DNA of 64,000 nucleotides, from assembly GCF_036507355.1 (NCBI RefSeq), contig NZ_AP027877.1; one strand, given 5' to 3'. Under the pieces are notes generated by a model, which was not told where the DNA came from, searched no databases, and saw only the letters and a list, made by a program, of their open reading frames with translations. Positions within the stretch are counted from its first letter, which is position 1; the number at the start of each line of letters is the position of its first letter. Below, piece after piece: positions 23,723 through 33,446 of the stretch. Both the position numbers and the translations under genes were made by a program. Source of the DNA: Escherichia coli (GTDB lineage Bacteria > Pseudomonadota > Gammaproteobacteria > Enterobacterales > Enterobacteriaceae).

Positions 23723-25235
23723 TTACGCCGCAATGGCGTTCATGATCGCCGGAACGGAAAGCTGTGCCAGCGGGATCTCCGCCACCTGTTTGCGATCGCG
23801 CATGATGATCACCCGGTCGGCATAGCCCACCAGCTCTTCCAGTTCGGAGGAGATCACCAGCAGCGCCAGACCGTCAGCACACAGCGTTTCAATCAGGCGG
23901 ATGATCTCGGCGTGGGCACCAACATCAATGCCACGGGTTGGCTCATCAAGGATCAGAAATTGCGGTCGGGTTAGTAGCCAACGTGAAAGCAGCACTTTTT
24001 GCTGATTGCCACCGGAGAGAAATTCAATCGGTTGTTCAGTTGAAGGTGTGCGAATGCCAAGCTGGCGGATAAAGCGTTCGGCAATCTCTTGCTGCTCTTT
24101 GCGGGAAATGGGTCGTAGCCAGCCGCGCTGGGCCTGGAGAGCGAGGATGATATTTTCCCGCACCGAGGCGGCGGCGATGATGCCATCGGTTTTCCTGTCT
24201 TCCGGGCAGAATCCGATGCCCAGTACTGAAGCCTGATGTGGCGATCGCAGGGTTTGCGGTTTGCCTTTGATCAACGCCGTGCCGCTGTCAGCAGGTTTGA
24301 TACCGAAGATCACTTCGGCGGTTTCGGTACGTCCGGATCCCAGCAAGCCAGCCAGACCGACGATCTCGCCGGGGTGCACTTCGAGATCAAACGGTGCTAT
24401 CGTTCCTTTTTTGCCGTAATTTTTGAACGCGGCAACGGGTTTGTCGCTCAACAATGTTCGCCCGGCACGCTGTAGCGCGTGGGTATCCAGCTCGCGCCCC
24501 AGCATCATTTTTACCAGTTCGATCTGCGGTAGCTCGCGCGTTTCCCGACAGCCTACGAAACTGCCGTTGCGTAAGACGGTGATCCGATCGCTGACCTGAT
24601 AGACCTGATCGAGAAAGTGAGTGACAAAGATCAGGCTGACGCCGCGATCGCGCAACTGACGCATCAGGCCAAATAATAGCTCCACTTCCTGGGTGTCGAG
24701 GCTGGCGGTGGGTTCATCGAGGATCAGCACTTTGGCGGAGAGATCGATAGCCCGGCAAATGGCGACGATTTGCTGCATCGCCACCGAAAAACGGTTAAGC
24801 GGTTCGCGCACGTCGAGGGAGAAACCGTAAGATGCCATCAGTTCGGTGGCGCGCTTTTCCATCTCTTTACGGCGTAGAAGGCCGAAACGTTTGGGTTCGC
24901 GACCTATGAATAGATTATCAGCAACCGACATATTGGGTAGCAGGTTGACTTCCTGATAGACGGTGCCGATACCGAGTTGTTGTGCATGGGCGGTATTTTT
25001 CGGTGAGATAGCCTGGCCTTCCAGCCAGATGGTGCCGCGATCGGCGTGGTATACACCAGTTAATGCTTTGATTAGCTTTGATTAGCGTTGATTTTCCCGC
25101 CCCGTTTTCACCAAGCAGCGCCATGATTTCGCCACGGCGCAGGCTGAAATCAACGTTGTCTAACGCTTTGACGCCGGGGAAAAATTTACTTAATCCTTCG
25201 GTGCGGAGGATCTCCTGGTGTTGGTCGGTCGTCAT
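23723..25235 (-). pseudogene. ytfR: ytfR (galactofuranose ABC transporter ATPase, two NBDs) inactivated by a +10-bp frameshift
   Basis: ORF track splits it into 24918..25235 (first 54 residues through Walker [14 protein letters not shown], then out-of-frame tail) and 23723..24931 (remainder, [16 protein letters not shown]...). Span is 1513 bp versus 1503 bp expected for the 500-aa K-12 protein (from memory). Confidence 0.85.
25066..25085. repeat. Perfect 10-bp tandem duplication (CTTTGATTAG x2) causing the ytfR frameshift
   Basis: Plus strand reads taatg-CTTTGATTAG-CTTTGATTAG-cgttgatttt; a degenerate third copy follows. Confidence 0.9.
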
Positions 25236-25374: not shown

Positions 25375-26331
25375 TCAATACCCCATATTTTTCTTCTTCT
25401 CTAACTCTTCTTTTGCGGTATCAGGCAGGTAAAGGGTGGATTTGGTTAACGTCAGCTTTTCAGGCATGGTGCCGTCTTTTTTGTATTTCTCCAGCGCATC
25501 GAAAGCGGGTCCTGCCATGTTCGGCGTCAGTTCAACACTGGCGTTCGCTTCGCCATCCATCATCGCTTTGTAGATGTCCGGTACACCGTCAATGGAACCC
25601 GTGAGGATATCTTTGCCCGGTTTCAGGCCCGCTTCTTTAATTGCCTGAATTGCACCAATCACCATGTCGTCGTTATGGGCGTAAACCATGCAGATGTTTT
25701 TGCCGTTGTTTTCCGCTTTGATAAAGCTCTCCATGACTTCTTTGCCTTTACTGCGGGTGAAGTCACCTGACTGCGAGCGGATAATTTTGATATTTGGCGC
25801 ATTCTTAATGGCTTCGGCAAAGCCTTTCTTACGGTCAATGGCGACGCTGGCCCCAACGGTGCCCTGCAGCTCCACCACGTTGCATGGTTTGCCATTCACT
25901 TCTTTTACCAGCCAGTCACCGATCAACTTACCTTCGAGGATGTTGTCGGCAGTAACGGTGGTCATATAGAGAGATTTGTCTTTCACATCGATGGAACGGT
26001 CGAGCAAGAAGACCGGGATTTCGGCATCTTTCGCCTCTTTTAATACCGGTTCCCAACCCGTCGCAACCACTGGAGCGATAAAGATCGCATCCACCCCTTG
26101 TGCAACGAAGGAACGTACCGCTTTAATCTGGTTTTCCTGCTTTTGCTGACCATCGGCAATTTTCAACGTAATTCCGCGTTTTTCGGCCTCACTTTTCGCC
26201 ACATTGGTTTCTGCGGCGCGCCAGCCGGATTCCGATCCGACCTGCGAAAATCCTACGGTTAATGGAGCGGCCAACGCCATAGACGACATGGCTGCCGAGA
26301 CTGCAGAGACTACAAGTAAGCGTTTCCACAT
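25375..26331 (-). CDS. ytfQ: Periplasmic galactofuranose-binding protein YtfQ
   Basis: 318-aa ORF with signal peptide; periplasmic sugar-binding fold family. Confidence 0.93.
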   Translation of the reverse strand: MWKRLLVVSAVSAAMSSMALAAPLTVGFSQVGSESGWRAAETNVAKSEAEKRGITLKIADGQQKQENQIKAVRSFVAQGVDAIFIAPVVATGWEPVLKEAKDAEIPVFLLDRSIDVKDKSLYMTTVTADNILEGKLIGDWLVKEVNGKPCNVVELQGTVGASVAIDRKKGFAEAIKNAPNIKIIRSQSGDFTRSKGKEVMESFIKAENNGKNICMVYAHNDDMVIGAIQAIKEAGLKPGKDILTGSIDGVPDIYKAMMDGEANASVELTPNMAGPAFDALEKYKKDGTMPEKLTLTKSTLYLPDTAKEELEKKKNMGY

Positions 26332-26640
26332 AGGGTTGTCCTCGTCGGGGTAATTATTATTGGTGAAAAGATGTTCGCGAAAAAACTATAGACAATTCGT
26401 TATGTAACGGATTGCGTTACATCACACTTCAAAAAAGTAAATAAAACGTTAATCACAAGTTTGTAATCGCTTTCATCTCACTATGAAAAATGCGGCTACG
26501 GTTATGGATTTTCCTGCTCTGTATACCGTCTTAAAACTGGCGAAAAAGGAAAATGAAGACGAAAACAAGCAAAGACATTCGGCGCGAGTTGGCTATAATA
26601 CTCGGCACTTGTTTGCCACATATTTTTAAAGGAAACAGAC

Positions 26641-27171
26641 ATGAGCTTACTCAACGTCCCTGCGGGTAAAGATCTGCCGGAAGACATCTACGTTGTTATT
26701 GAGATCCCGGCTAACGCAGATCCGATCAAATACGAAATCGACAAAGAGAGCGGCGCACTGTTCGTTGACCGCTTCATGTCCACCGCGATGTTCTATCCGT
26801 GCAACTACGGTTACATCAACCACACCCTGTCTCTGGACGGTGACCCGGTTGACGTACTGGTCCCGACTCCGTACCCGCTGCAGCCGGGTTCTGTGATCCG
26901 TTGCCGTCCGGTTGGCGTTCTGAAAATGACCGACGAAGCCGGTGAAGATGCGAAACTGGTTGCGGTTCCGCACAGCAAGCTGAGCAAAGAATACGATCAC
27001 ATTAAAGACGTAAACGATCTGCCTGAACTGCTGAAAGCGCAAATCGCTCACTTCTTCGAGCACTACAAAGACCTCGAAAAAGGCAAGTGGGTGAAAGTTG
27101 AAGGTTGGGAAAACGCAGAAGCCGCTAAAGCTGAAATCGTTGCTTCCTTCGAGCGCGCAAAGAATAAATAA
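26641..27171 (+). CDS. ppa: Inorganic pyrophosphatase
   Basis: 176-aa ORF with DGDPVDVLV motif. Confidence 0.97.
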
Positions 27172-27516
27172 GTTCTTCTAGCGCAATAACCCTGAACGCC
27201 GGGCTTCGGTTAGTAAGGGTTTTTTTATGCCCGCGATAAATAAACTCTCTATTCCACCATCATTATTCTCAGCGGTTGCAAGGCTTGAACGGTAAGAACA
27301 AGCAAACCCGACCACCATTTTGCTGTTCATAGCCACTTGCTGGAAGTTAGCCGACCTCACTCATACTCACCGTTCAAAGCGTGCCCCCGTTTTACCCCTG
27401 CACATTTGTGAACGCCAGCAGAGTTTTTTATGCGATTGCAGATATGGAAAGCGGCTCGGAGAGAAAAGCAAAAGATGGAAAAGTTACAAAAAAAAATCGC
27501 GAGATACATCGCATAA

Positions 27517-27550
27517 AACAACGCCACCCGAAGGTGGCGTGCTTTTATTA
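27517..27550 (-). terminator. Rho-independent terminator downstream of ytfP
   Basis: Minus strand GCCACC-TTCG-GGTGGC hairpin followed by a T-rich run, directly after the ytfP stop. Confidence 0.7.
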
Positions 27551-27892
27551 TTACTTATCCCTGTCTAACCAGTCGCCGCTTTCAATTAGCTTTAATCCAT
27601 CGACGGGTCGTTGATAAACGTACATCCATGCACTCCCGTACGGCGTCTGAATCAACTGGCGCGCGTATTCACCGCCCCTGGTGCGCAAGGCATCAAGTTC
27701 GGCCAGCGTGGCGTTGTCAATACGATAAACTTCACCGTGTACCGTTCCGTTCCCCGGAACTGCGCCTGGATAGTGGCCCAGGCTATACAACTGGTAGTTA
27801 TCGATACTGAAATCGCCCAGTAACTGGGCATTGGTCATCCAGTGACTGTTGCCTTGTTTGTGGCGTAAACTGCCGTAGACAAATATTCGCAT
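27551..27892 (-). CDS. ytfP: Gamma-glutamylcyclotransferase-like protein YtfP
   Basis: 113-aa ORF (MRIFVYGSLRHKQGNSHW...), AIG2/GGCT-like. Confidence 0.9.
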   Translation of the reverse strand: MRIFVYGSLRHKQGNSHWMTNAQLLGDFSIDNYQLYSLGHYPGAVPGNGTVHGEVYRIDNATLAELDALRTRGGEYARQLIQTPYGSAWMYVYQRPVDGLKLIESGDWLDRDK

Positions 27893-27894
27893 TG

Positions 27895-33446
<5,552 letters not shown>

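What the first reader, a model, noticed from the sequence alone, without database searches (positions are those of the whole stretch)
27172..27550. No chpS/chpB toxin-antitoxin pair between ppa and ytfP
In K-12, as I recall it, the ChpBI/ChpBK (PemIK/MazEF-like) pair lies between ppa and ytfP. Here the gap is only 379 bp and contains no ORF resembling a PemK/MazF-fold toxin or an AbrB-fold antitoxin, only terminator hairpins and short alternate-frame ORFs. This marks the locus as differing from K-12 and is a clean example of presence/absence polymorphism of a chromosomal TA module at a fixed site.
Basis: partly seen in the sequence, partly recalled or inferred. Interest (0 to 1): 0.4.

Follow-up and report, generated by a model that had tools for sequence, protein, structure and literature searches.

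The report
Decayed chpSB toxin–antitoxin scar
The short spacer between ppa and ytfP in this E. coli lacks the K-12 chpS/chpB toxin–antitoxin pair but is not an empty site: it holds a badly decayed remnant of the toxin gene, a common allele of a locus polymorphism that is already published, so the finding is real but ordinary.

Summary
K-12 has chpB and chpS in an 886-bp gap at this exact site.

The "clean presence/absence" reading is only partly right. The gap is a scar. Window 27254-27378 (- strand) is colinear with chpB codons 7-48 at 72% DNA identity (shuffle z = 28). It carries two in-frame stops and two 1-bp deletions. The chpB stop and last codons survive at 27249-27259. Part of the chpS upstream region survives at 27388-27540.

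Relative to K-12 there are two deletions. One is 195 bp inside chpB, flanked by a CCACCA microhomology. The other is 312 bp and removes the sequence next to the chpS start, all of chpS and the chpB start.

Among 5426 complete E. coli genomes, 3098 carry intact chpSB and 2320 carry this scar, including BL21; at least one of those has esiB beside it. The same scar occurs in E. albertii, so it is old. True empty sites in other genera are 90-165 bp.

The three-state locus (chpBS, esiB, neither) was published in 2013. Interest is low.

The parts
26641..27171 (+). ppa (inorganic diphosphatase), the conserved left flank of the site
   Evidence: 176-aa ORF. Annotated as ppa in the matching genomes.
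27188..27228 (+). ppa terminator: a hairpin AACCCU...AGGGUU followed by U7. It is shared with K-12 and with other genera.
   Evidence: Fold; the energy is not exceptional (z about 0). The same hairpin with its T-run is conserved next to ppa in C. amalonaticus, S. diarizonae and Raoultella. It is 93% identical to K-12 over gap positions 1-88.
27249..27259 (-). Relic of the 3' end of chpB: a stop codon (TAG here, TAA in K-12) plus the last codons (..V E *). This is the right-hand copy of the CCACCA microhomology.
   Evidence: Pairwise alignments.
27254..27378 (-). Relic of chpB codons 7-48. It is 72% identical to K-12 chpB and has two in-frame stops and two 1-bp deletions.
   Evidence: blastn gives E 8e-19. 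The local alignment scores 48 against 10.0 +/- 1.35 in 1000 dinucleotide shuffles, z = 28. The frame-corrected peptide matches ChpB residues 7-48 at 22 of 42 positions. tblastn gives E 0.002. The relic with the same junctions is present in L008 and in E. albertii L010.
27379..27387 (.). 9-bp junction filler (GCGTGCCCC) at the 312-bp deletion. That deletion removed chpB codons 1-6, all of chpS and 49 bp upstream of the chpS start.
   Evidence: These are the unaligned bases between the blastn blocks. The junction is the same in the other scar alleles.
27388..27520 (-). Remnant of the chpS upstream region (K-12 positions about -50 to -200 from the chpS ATG). This sequence belongs to the chpSB module, not to the empty site.
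   Evidence: 86% identical to K-12 and 100% identical to the chpSB-bearing strain O111:H2 12A. It is absent from the 90-165 bp empty sites of other genera.
27521..27540 (.). Bidirectional terminator hairpin ACGCCACC-N4-GGTGGCGT that ends ytfP transcription.
   Evidence: Terminator scan finds it on both strands. Fold is -19.9 kcal/mol, z = -4.5. It is conserved in all genera inspected.
27551..27892 (-). ytfP (gamma-glutamylcyclotransferase family), the conserved right flank of the site
   Evidence: 113-aa ORF, 100% identical in nucleotides to K-12 ytfP.

Best explanation
The 379-bp ppa-ytfP spacer is the chpSB-null allele of a known multi-state E. coli locus, and it is a degraded chpSB operon rather than a never-occupied site. 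An ancestral chpS-chpB operon, in the same position and orientation as in K-12, suffered two deletions. The first is an in-frame 195-bp deletion inside chpB (about codons 49-113) between two CCACCA repeats. The second is a 312-bp deletion that removed the 49 bp upstream of chpS, all of chpS and the first six chpB codons. The remaining chpB fragment then decayed, acquiring stops, frameshifts and about 28% substitutions. Today the allele encodes no toxin and no antitoxin. The only working elements left are the convergent terminators of ppa and ytfP. The sequence anatomy, the allele frequencies and the presence of the scar in E. albertii are shown by tool results. Three points are inferred. First, the toxin was probably disabled before or together with the antitoxin, because losing the antitoxin alone would be counter-selected. 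Second, the CCACCA microhomology probably mediated the first deletion. Third, the scar is probably about twice as old as the E. coli/E. albertii split, an estimate from a rough neutral clock.
For: K-12 has chpB and chpS in an 886-bp spacer at this site. Three colinear homology blocks link the window spacer to the K-12 spacer: gap 1-88 matches K-12 1-90 (93%), gap 83-207 matches K-12 286-412 inside chpB (72%, E 8e-19), and gap 217-369 matches K-12 725-876 (86%). The shuffle test gives z = 28. The frame-corrected relic peptide is 52% identical to ChpB residues 7-48. The best ChpB tblastn hit in the whole 64-kb window falls at 27355-27272 on the correct strand. No gap ORF matches Pfam PemK or MazE. 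The scan found no promoter-like site and Rfam gave no family match. Small ORFs in the gap are not conserved among scar alleles. In the survey, 3098 of 5426 genomes have intact chpSB and 2320 have the scar, BL21 among them. The same two junctions occur in E. albertii and in another non-coli Escherichia, and their flanking genes are diverged at species level. The 21 substitutions shared by all three relics fall evenly over codon positions (8:8:5), as expected for decay after inactivation. Genuinely empty sites in other genera are only 90-165 bp, consisting of two terminators back to back. The literature already describes chpBS, esiB and neither as states at this locus.
Against: The relic is far more diverged from intact Escherichia chpB (28-30%) than scar alleles are from one another (4-13%) or than intact chpB genes are across Escherichia species (1-6% in this segment). 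Simple in-situ decay therefore needs a very old origin, with the intact allele coexisting all that time. The window-to-E. albertii divergence of the spacer (11-13%) is about half the third-codon-position divergence of tamB and ytfQ (26-27%). The scar may therefore have crossed species by recombination rather than predating the split. The order of the two deletions cannot be read from the sequence. The exact boundary of the 312-bp deletion is uncertain by about 10 bp. No expression data were available.
Confidence: 0.9

Rival explanations
1. Virgin empty site. On this view the strain never had chpSB, K-12-type strains gained the module by insertion, and the 379 bp is the unoccupied target.
For: No toxin or antitoxin ORF is present. 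A global MAFFT alignment shows one big gap and looks superficially like a simple indel.
Against: Local alignment finds colinear chpB coding homology in the same orientation. It also finds chpS upstream sequence that is absent from real empty sites. Those sites are 90-165 bp in Citrobacter, Klebsiella, Kluyvera, Enterobacter and S. diarizonae.
Confidence: 0.02
2. Recent, strain-specific deletion of a K-12-like chpSB operon.
For: The flanking genes are nearly identical to K-12: ytfP 100%, ppa 99.1%, tamB 99.0%.
Against: The identical spacer is found in about 2000 genomes, and the allele in 2320. The relic is only 72% identical to K-12 chpB. The same junctions occur in E. albertii with about 11% divergence.
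Confidence: 0.01
3. Same scar, different history. The high divergence of the relic reflects origin from a divergent chpB allele of another Escherichia-related lineage. That allele would have been brought into E. coli and E. albertii by homologous recombination through the conserved ppa and ytfP flanks, rather than decaying in place for a very long time.
For: The divergent sequence is sharply confined to the spacer, while ytfP next to it has no differences from K-12 for 512 bp. Flank haplotypes recombine freely: O111:H2 12A has chpSB together with a right flank 100% identical to this window. The ppa-spacer-ytfP core is half as diverged from E. albertii as the outer genes.
Against: The relic is closer to Escherichia chpB (p about 0.30) than to any other genus sampled (0.42-0.53). 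The stem substitutions are spread evenly over codon positions, so they accumulated without coding constraint. No donor lineage with a matching intact allele was found among the 80 loci.
Confidence: 0.25
4. The relic persists because it has acquired a function, for example a small RNA, a small protein, or spacing and insulation between the convergent ppa and ytfP terminators.
For: A 125-bp pseudogene fragment has survived in many lineages despite the bacterial deletion bias. The relic is 95.5% identical between the window and L008, while the whole spacer is 90% identical.
Against: There is no Rfam match and no promoter-like site. ORFs are not conserved among scar alleles. Scar alleles differ by up to 11-13%, as expected for unconstrained DNA. 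In E. albertii the relic is no better conserved than the rest of the spacer.
Confidence: 0.05

Closest known systems
chpS-chpB (chpBI-chpBK) type II toxin-antitoxin operon of E. coli K-12 (Masuda et al. 1993, as cited in PMC7167474)
   Same: The chromosomal site is the same, between ppa and ytfP, and the orientation is the same. The window keeps DNA homologous to chpB codons 7-48, the chpB stop region and the distal chpS upstream region.
   Different: There is no chpS at all, no chpB start and no chpB codons 49-113. The remaining fragment has stops and frameshifts. No toxin or antitoxin can be made.
Three-state ytfP-ppa locus of E. coli: chpBS, esiB or neither (Pastorello et al. 2013, mBio, PMC3735183)
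   Same: This window is the published 'both esiB and chpBS absent' state. That paper counted 32% neither, 53% chpBS and 15% esiB among 47 genomes. My counts on 5426 genomes are 57% chpSB and 43% scar; esiB is in about 3.4% of genomes and lay beside the scar in the one esiB genome I examined.
   Different: The passage I read treats the state as simple absence. Here the 'absent' state is shown to be a chpSB scar. In strain GN02323 esiB sits beside the same scar rather than replacing chpSB.
Decay of the chromosomal ccdO157 toxin-antitoxin system across E. coli (Mine et al. 2009, Genetics 181:1557, listed in the references of PMC7167474; content recalled from my own knowledge)
   Same: A chromosomal type II TA module at a fixed intergenic site, intact in some strains and degenerate or missing in others of the same species.
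   Different: It is a different TA family (CcdAB versus MazEF/PemIK-like) at a different locus. Here one particular two-deletion scar is shared by 43% of genomes and by E. albertii, rather than there being many independent inactivating mutations.

Membership tests
PemK/MazF-type toxin (ChpB; Pfam PF02452) | An intact ORF of about 110-116 aa that matches the PemK_toxin profile | tested here: not met
   None of the three gap ORFs scanned (60, 82 and 77 aa), nor the frame-corrected relic peptide, matches PF02452 even at E <= 10. K-12 ChpB matches at 1e-25.
MazE/AbrB-type antitoxin (ChpS; Pfam PF04014) | An ORF of about 80 aa upstream of and overlapping the toxin gene that matches the MazE_antitoxin profile | tested here: not met
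   tblastn with ChpS finds nothing in the spacer. There is no Pfam hit. DNA alignment shows the whole of chpS deleted.
Pseudogene relic of chpSB (scarred deletion allele) | Colinear nucleotide homology to chpB at the orthologous site and strand, beyond chance | tested here: met
   72% identity over 127 columns, E 8e-19. Shuffle z = 28. The relic is closest to Escherichia chpB among all chpB genes sampled.
Pseudogene relic of chpSB (scarred deletion allele) | Disabling lesions: deletions, frameshifts and premature stops | tested here: met
   Deletions of 195 bp and 312 bp, two 1-bp deletions, and in-frame TGA and TAA codons.
Unoccupied (virgin) ppa-ytfP site | A spacer made only of the ytfP and ppa terminators with a short linker, as in genera without chpSB (90-165 bp) | tested here: not met
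   The window spacer is 379 bp and carries about 250 bp of chpSB-module sequence that is absent from the empty sites of Citrobacter, Klebsiella, Kluyvera, Enterobacter and S. diarizonae.
Published 'esiB- chpBS-' state of the ytfP-ppa locus (PMC3735183) | Neither esiB nor chpBS genes between ytfP and ppa, with conserved flanking genes | tested here: met
   The 379-bp spacer has no room for the 1473-bp esiB. chpSB genes are absent. The flanking order ytfQ-ppa / ytfP-tamB is conserved.

The most novel reading that the evidence does not exclude
The intact chpSB allele and the two-deletion scar may be a very old presence/absence polymorphism that spans species boundaries in Escherichia. Both states occur in E. 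coli (57:43). The scar occurs in E. albertii and in another non-coli species. Intact chpSB occurs in E. whittamii and three other non-coli lineages, and in each species the allele is diverged roughly in step with its immediate flanking genes, ytfP and ppa. The decay of the relic suggests an origin about twice as old as the E. coli/E. albertii split. If the polymorphism is maintained by selection, for example a benefit of ChpBK under some phage or stress regimes against a cost elsewhere, or selfish re-invasion by the addictive module balanced by loss, it would be an unusually long-lived balanced polymorphism of a chromosomal TA module.
Probability: 0.25. Interest if true: 0.45.

Novelty: already known. 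Interest (0 to 1): 0.2.

Why it matters
The practical value is modest. chpSB is one of the canonical K-12 toxin-antitoxin modules deleted in the Δ5 and Δ10 strains used in persistence studies. About 43% of complete E. coli genomes naturally lack it, including the workhorse strain BL21. Surveys that score the locus as present or absent, by PCR or by gene calls, miss the fact that the "absent" state is a specific, old, shared scar. That fact changes the evolutionary reading from repeated gain of a mobile module to ancient residence followed by loss. A different scar in Citrobacter sedlakii and chpSB orthologues at the same site in five other genera point the same way. The ppa-ytfP spacer also appears to be a general cargo hotspot in Enterobacteriaceae. 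None of this opens a new mechanism or a long-standing question.

Tried and rejected
- The global MAFFT alignment of the two spacers spread the relic across chpS sequence and hid the homology. I replaced it with small-word blastn and affine-gap pairwise alignments.
- tblastn at E <= 1e-3 against the loci set did not detect the relic. Only DNA-level comparison and a permissive tblastn did.
- Pfam scans of all gap ORFs and of a frame-corrected relic peptide found nothing relevant.
- An Rfam scan of 26300-28000 at E <= 1 gave only a sub-threshold S15-leader hit inside ppa (16.8 bits against a gathering score of 39.5), which I treat as chance.
- The promoter scan found no site.
- The small ORFs (28 aa on +, 60 aa on -) were checked across scar alleles and are not conserved.
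- Strain HH45 looked at first like an intermediate allele. It contains a GC-rich low-complexity stretch and a relic that switches from K-12-like to window-like sequence. I treat it as a probable assembly or polishing artefact and did not use it.
- Literature searches for a described chpB remnant found none in the held library. One search call failed on a term-length limit.

Full report
**The observation.** The window carries ppa at 26641-27171 (+), ytfP at 27551-27892 (-) and tamB at 27895-31674 (-). Its ORFs are short. None matches the PemK/MazF toxin profile (PF02452) or the MazE/AbrB antitoxin profile (PF04014), while K-12 ChpB and ChpS match at E 1e-25 and 1e-11. In K-12 strain TG1 the same interval is 886 bp and holds chpB and chpS, both on the ytfP strand. 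MG1655 has the identical chpSB sequence.

**Empty site or scar.** A global MAFFT alignment showed one long gap and a poorly aligned middle segment. Small-word blastn resolved this into three colinear blocks.
- Gap 1-88 matches K-12 gap 1-90 at 93%. This block covers the ppa terminator, the chpB stop codon and the last chpB codons.
- Gap 83-207 (window 27254-27378) matches K-12 gap 286-412 at 72%, E 8e-19. This lies inside chpB, at codons 7-48.
- Gap 217-369 (window 27388-27540) matches K-12 gap 725-876 at 86%. This is the distal part of the 211-bp region between ytfP and chpS.

A local-alignment score of 48 for the middle segment compares with 10.0 +/- 1.35 (maximum 16) in 1000 dinucleotide-preserving shuffles, so z = 28. 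After frame correction the relic reads FER*VMSEVG*LPASGYEQQNGGRV.LVLTVQALQPLRIMMV. This matches ChpB residues 7-48 at 22 of 42 positions. It contains two in-frame stops and two 1-bp deletions. The best ChpB tblastn hit in the whole 64-kb window lies here, on the correct strand, at E 0.002.

Relative to K-12 the allele has two deletions. One is 195 bp (65 codons) inside chpB, bounded by CCACCA on both sides. The other is 312 bp and removes chpB codons 1-6, all of chpS and 49 bp upstream of the chpS start. Nine unaligned bases (27379-27387) mark that second junction. The spacer is a scarred deletion, not an empty site.

**What a real empty site looks like.** I fetched 80 ytfP loci from one genome per species. 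In many Citrobacter, Klebsiella, Kluyvera, Enterobacter, Raoultella and Salmonella diarizonae genomes the ppa-ytfP spacer is only 90-165 bp. It consists of the conserved ytfP terminator hairpin (ACGCCACC-N4-GGTGGCGT), a short linker and the ppa terminator. About 250 bp of the window spacer is therefore chpSB-module sequence, including the 27388-27520 segment that might otherwise be taken for ordinary flank.

**Distribution in E. coli.** Of 5426 complete E. coli genomes, 3098 hold at least 80% of K-12 chpSB and 2320 hold at least 80% of this 379-bp spacer. That leaves about 8 genomes with other states. BL21 derivatives carry the scar (H34). Scar alleles are diverse, at 100%, 94.7%, 93.7% and 88.6-88.9% identity to the window. 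They occur in distant backgrounds, for example BL21 and an APEC O2:K1:H5 strain.

A third state exists. In strain GN02323 the scar is present and the 1473-bp esiB gene is inserted between it and the ytfP terminator. The insertion is bounded by a second terminator-like hairpin. esiB is found in 187-188 genomes.

Flank haplotypes recombine. O111:H2 strain 12A has intact chpSB together with a ytfP-side flank 100% identical to this window, whereas K-12's flank is only 86% identical. Between the window and K-12 the high divergence is confined to the spacer. ytfP has no differences, and the first mismatch on that side is 512 bp away.

**Prior literature.** Pastorello et al. 2013 (PMC3735183) describe exactly this locus. 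In CFT073 esiB lies between ytfP and ppa, in MG1655 the ChpBS system lies in the same place, and in several strains both are absent. Among 47 genomes they counted 53% chpBS, 15% esiB and 32% neither. PCR and pan-genome surveys also treat chpBIK as variable. The presence/absence polymorphism is therefore already known. I found no paper in the held library that describes the chpB remnant. That is absence of evidence only.

**Age and history.** These conclusions are partly inferred.
- The same two-junction scar, 378 bp long, occurs in E. albertii NBRC 107761 (L010) and in a non-coli Escherichia deposited as E. coli SCPM-O-B-8794 (L008). Spacer identities to the window are 89% and 90%.
- Their flanking genes are diverged at species level, with tamB at 89.6% and 91.0%.
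- Intact chpSB at the same site occurs in E. whittamii and three other non-coli Escherichia. Their chpSB nucleotide identity to K-12 is 90.6-94.6%, similar to the flanks.
- More distant ChpB orthologues (64-78% amino-acid identity) sit at the same site in Enterobacter asburiae, Lelliottia, Kluyvera, Pseudocitrobacter and an unnamed enterobacterium.
- The module therefore looks like an old resident of this spacer that has been lost repeatedly. Citrobacter sedlakii carries a different scar, produced by a single deletion that leaves the 3' third of chpB.
- The window relic is closest to Escherichia chpB (p about 0.30, against 0.42-0.53 for other genera).
- Over 125 columns, 21 substitutions are shared by all three relics against invariant intact genes. 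They fall evenly over codon positions (8:8:5), which fits decay after inactivation.
- On a rough neutral clock the relic's total decay of about 28% compares with about 13% per lineage at third codon positions of tamB and ytfQ between E. coli and E. albertii. This suggests an origin about twice as old as that split.
- The estimate has caveats. The spacer, ytfP and ppa are only 11-13% diverged between the two species, which is half the value for the outer genes. Inter-species recombination of this 1.25-kb core, or origin from a divergent donor allele, cannot be excluded.

**What the spacer does now.** I found no promoter-like site and no Rfam family at or near threshold. The small ORFs are not conserved among scar alleles. 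The ytfP terminator hairpin is strong (-19.9 kcal/mol, z = -4.5) and reads as a terminator on both strands. The ppa terminator hairpin with its U7 tail is conserved across genera, although its folding energy is unremarkable.

The most likely reading is a non-functional remnant flanked by two working terminators. The strain lacks the ChpBK endoribonuclease and the ChpBI antitoxin. By the usual logic of type II TA modules, which I infer rather than test here, the toxin must have been disabled before or together with the antitoxin. Either the in-frame 65-codon deletion came first, or the 312-bp deletion removed the promoter, the antitoxin gene and the toxin start in a single event.

**Verdict.** The polymorphism is already published. 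The new details are the scar anatomy, the sharing of the scar with E. albertii and the hotspot nature of the site across genera. These are minor additions. Interest 0.2.

Noticed in passing
window 25065-25074 (ytfR, - strand, about 23723-25235): ytfR, the galactofuranose ABC transporter ATPase gene, carries a 10-bp tandem duplication (GCTTTGATTA twice) relative to strain O111:H2 12A. The duplication shifts the frame just after the Walker A motif ([13 protein letters not shown]...), so the gene is a pseudogene here. The closest genome, 2013C-4974, also has ytfR annotated as a pseudogene.
   Followed up: partly
L017 3734-5227; L016 3603-4945; L041 3382-5007; L054 3387-5971; L011 3510-5582; L033 3389-4711: The ppa-ytfP spacer is a cargo hotspot across Enterobacteriaceae. 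S. arizonae and C. youngae carry an Hcp-domain protein with a long C-terminal extension, followed by a small downstream gene; the one in C. youngae is a DUF4926 protein, while the one in S. arizonae matches no Pfam family. Silvania, E. soli and Pluralibacter carry a methyl-accepting chemotaxis protein. Pluralibacter also carries a RelE-like plus HTH pair. Citrobacter carries a TonB-dependent receptor. E. cloacae and E. mori carry three unannotated small membrane-like ORFs.
   Followed up: partly
L027 3343-3683 (Citrobacter sedlakii NBRC 105722): An independent and differently shaped chpSB scar. The chpS upstream region (81.5% identical to K-12) is joined directly to the 3' third of chpB (63% identity over 252 columns, E 3e-18). 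This indicates a single deletion of chpS plus the first two thirds of chpB.
   Followed up: yes
L088 1903-3937 (E. coli GN02323); also CFT073 and LF82: In GN02323, the one esiB genome I examined, the same chpSB scar is kept. esiB is inserted between the scar and the ytfP terminator, bounded by a second terminator-like hairpin (GCCACCTGCGGGTGGCG). In that genome esiB accompanies the scar rather than replacing chpSB, and its scar is the most diverged E. coli version seen (88.6%).
   Followed up: partly
L087 1893-2404 (E. coli HH45): A 512-bp spacer with about 130 bp of GC-rich low-complexity sequence. Its chpB relic is K-12-like for about 100 bp and then switches to window-like sequence. PGAP annotates a partial PemK/MazF pseudogene there. 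It is probably an assembly or polishing artefact, or possibly a rare recombinant.
   Followed up: partly
L003 3952-4163 (E. coli O111:H2 12A) compared with window 27388-27550: The spacer segment between ytfP and chpS exists in deeply diverged haplotypes; K-12 and the window are 86% identical there. These haplotypes are shuffled between intact and scar alleles: 12A has chpSB with a flank 100% identical to the window.
   Followed up: partly
window 25375-30500 compared with L010 (E. albertii): Third-codon-position divergence from E. albertii is 0.26-0.27 in tamB and ytfQ. It is only 0.115-0.124 in ytfP and ppa, and 0.11-0.13 in the non-coding spacer. The central 1.25 kb is half as diverged as its surroundings. 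The cause could be introgression, codon-usage constraint or a locally low mutation rate.
   Followed up: no
window 27106-27162 (+): A sub-threshold Rfam hit to the ribosomal S15 leader (16.8 bits against a gathering score of 39.5, E 0.58) inside the 3' end of the ppa coding sequence. It is almost certainly chance.
   Followed up: no
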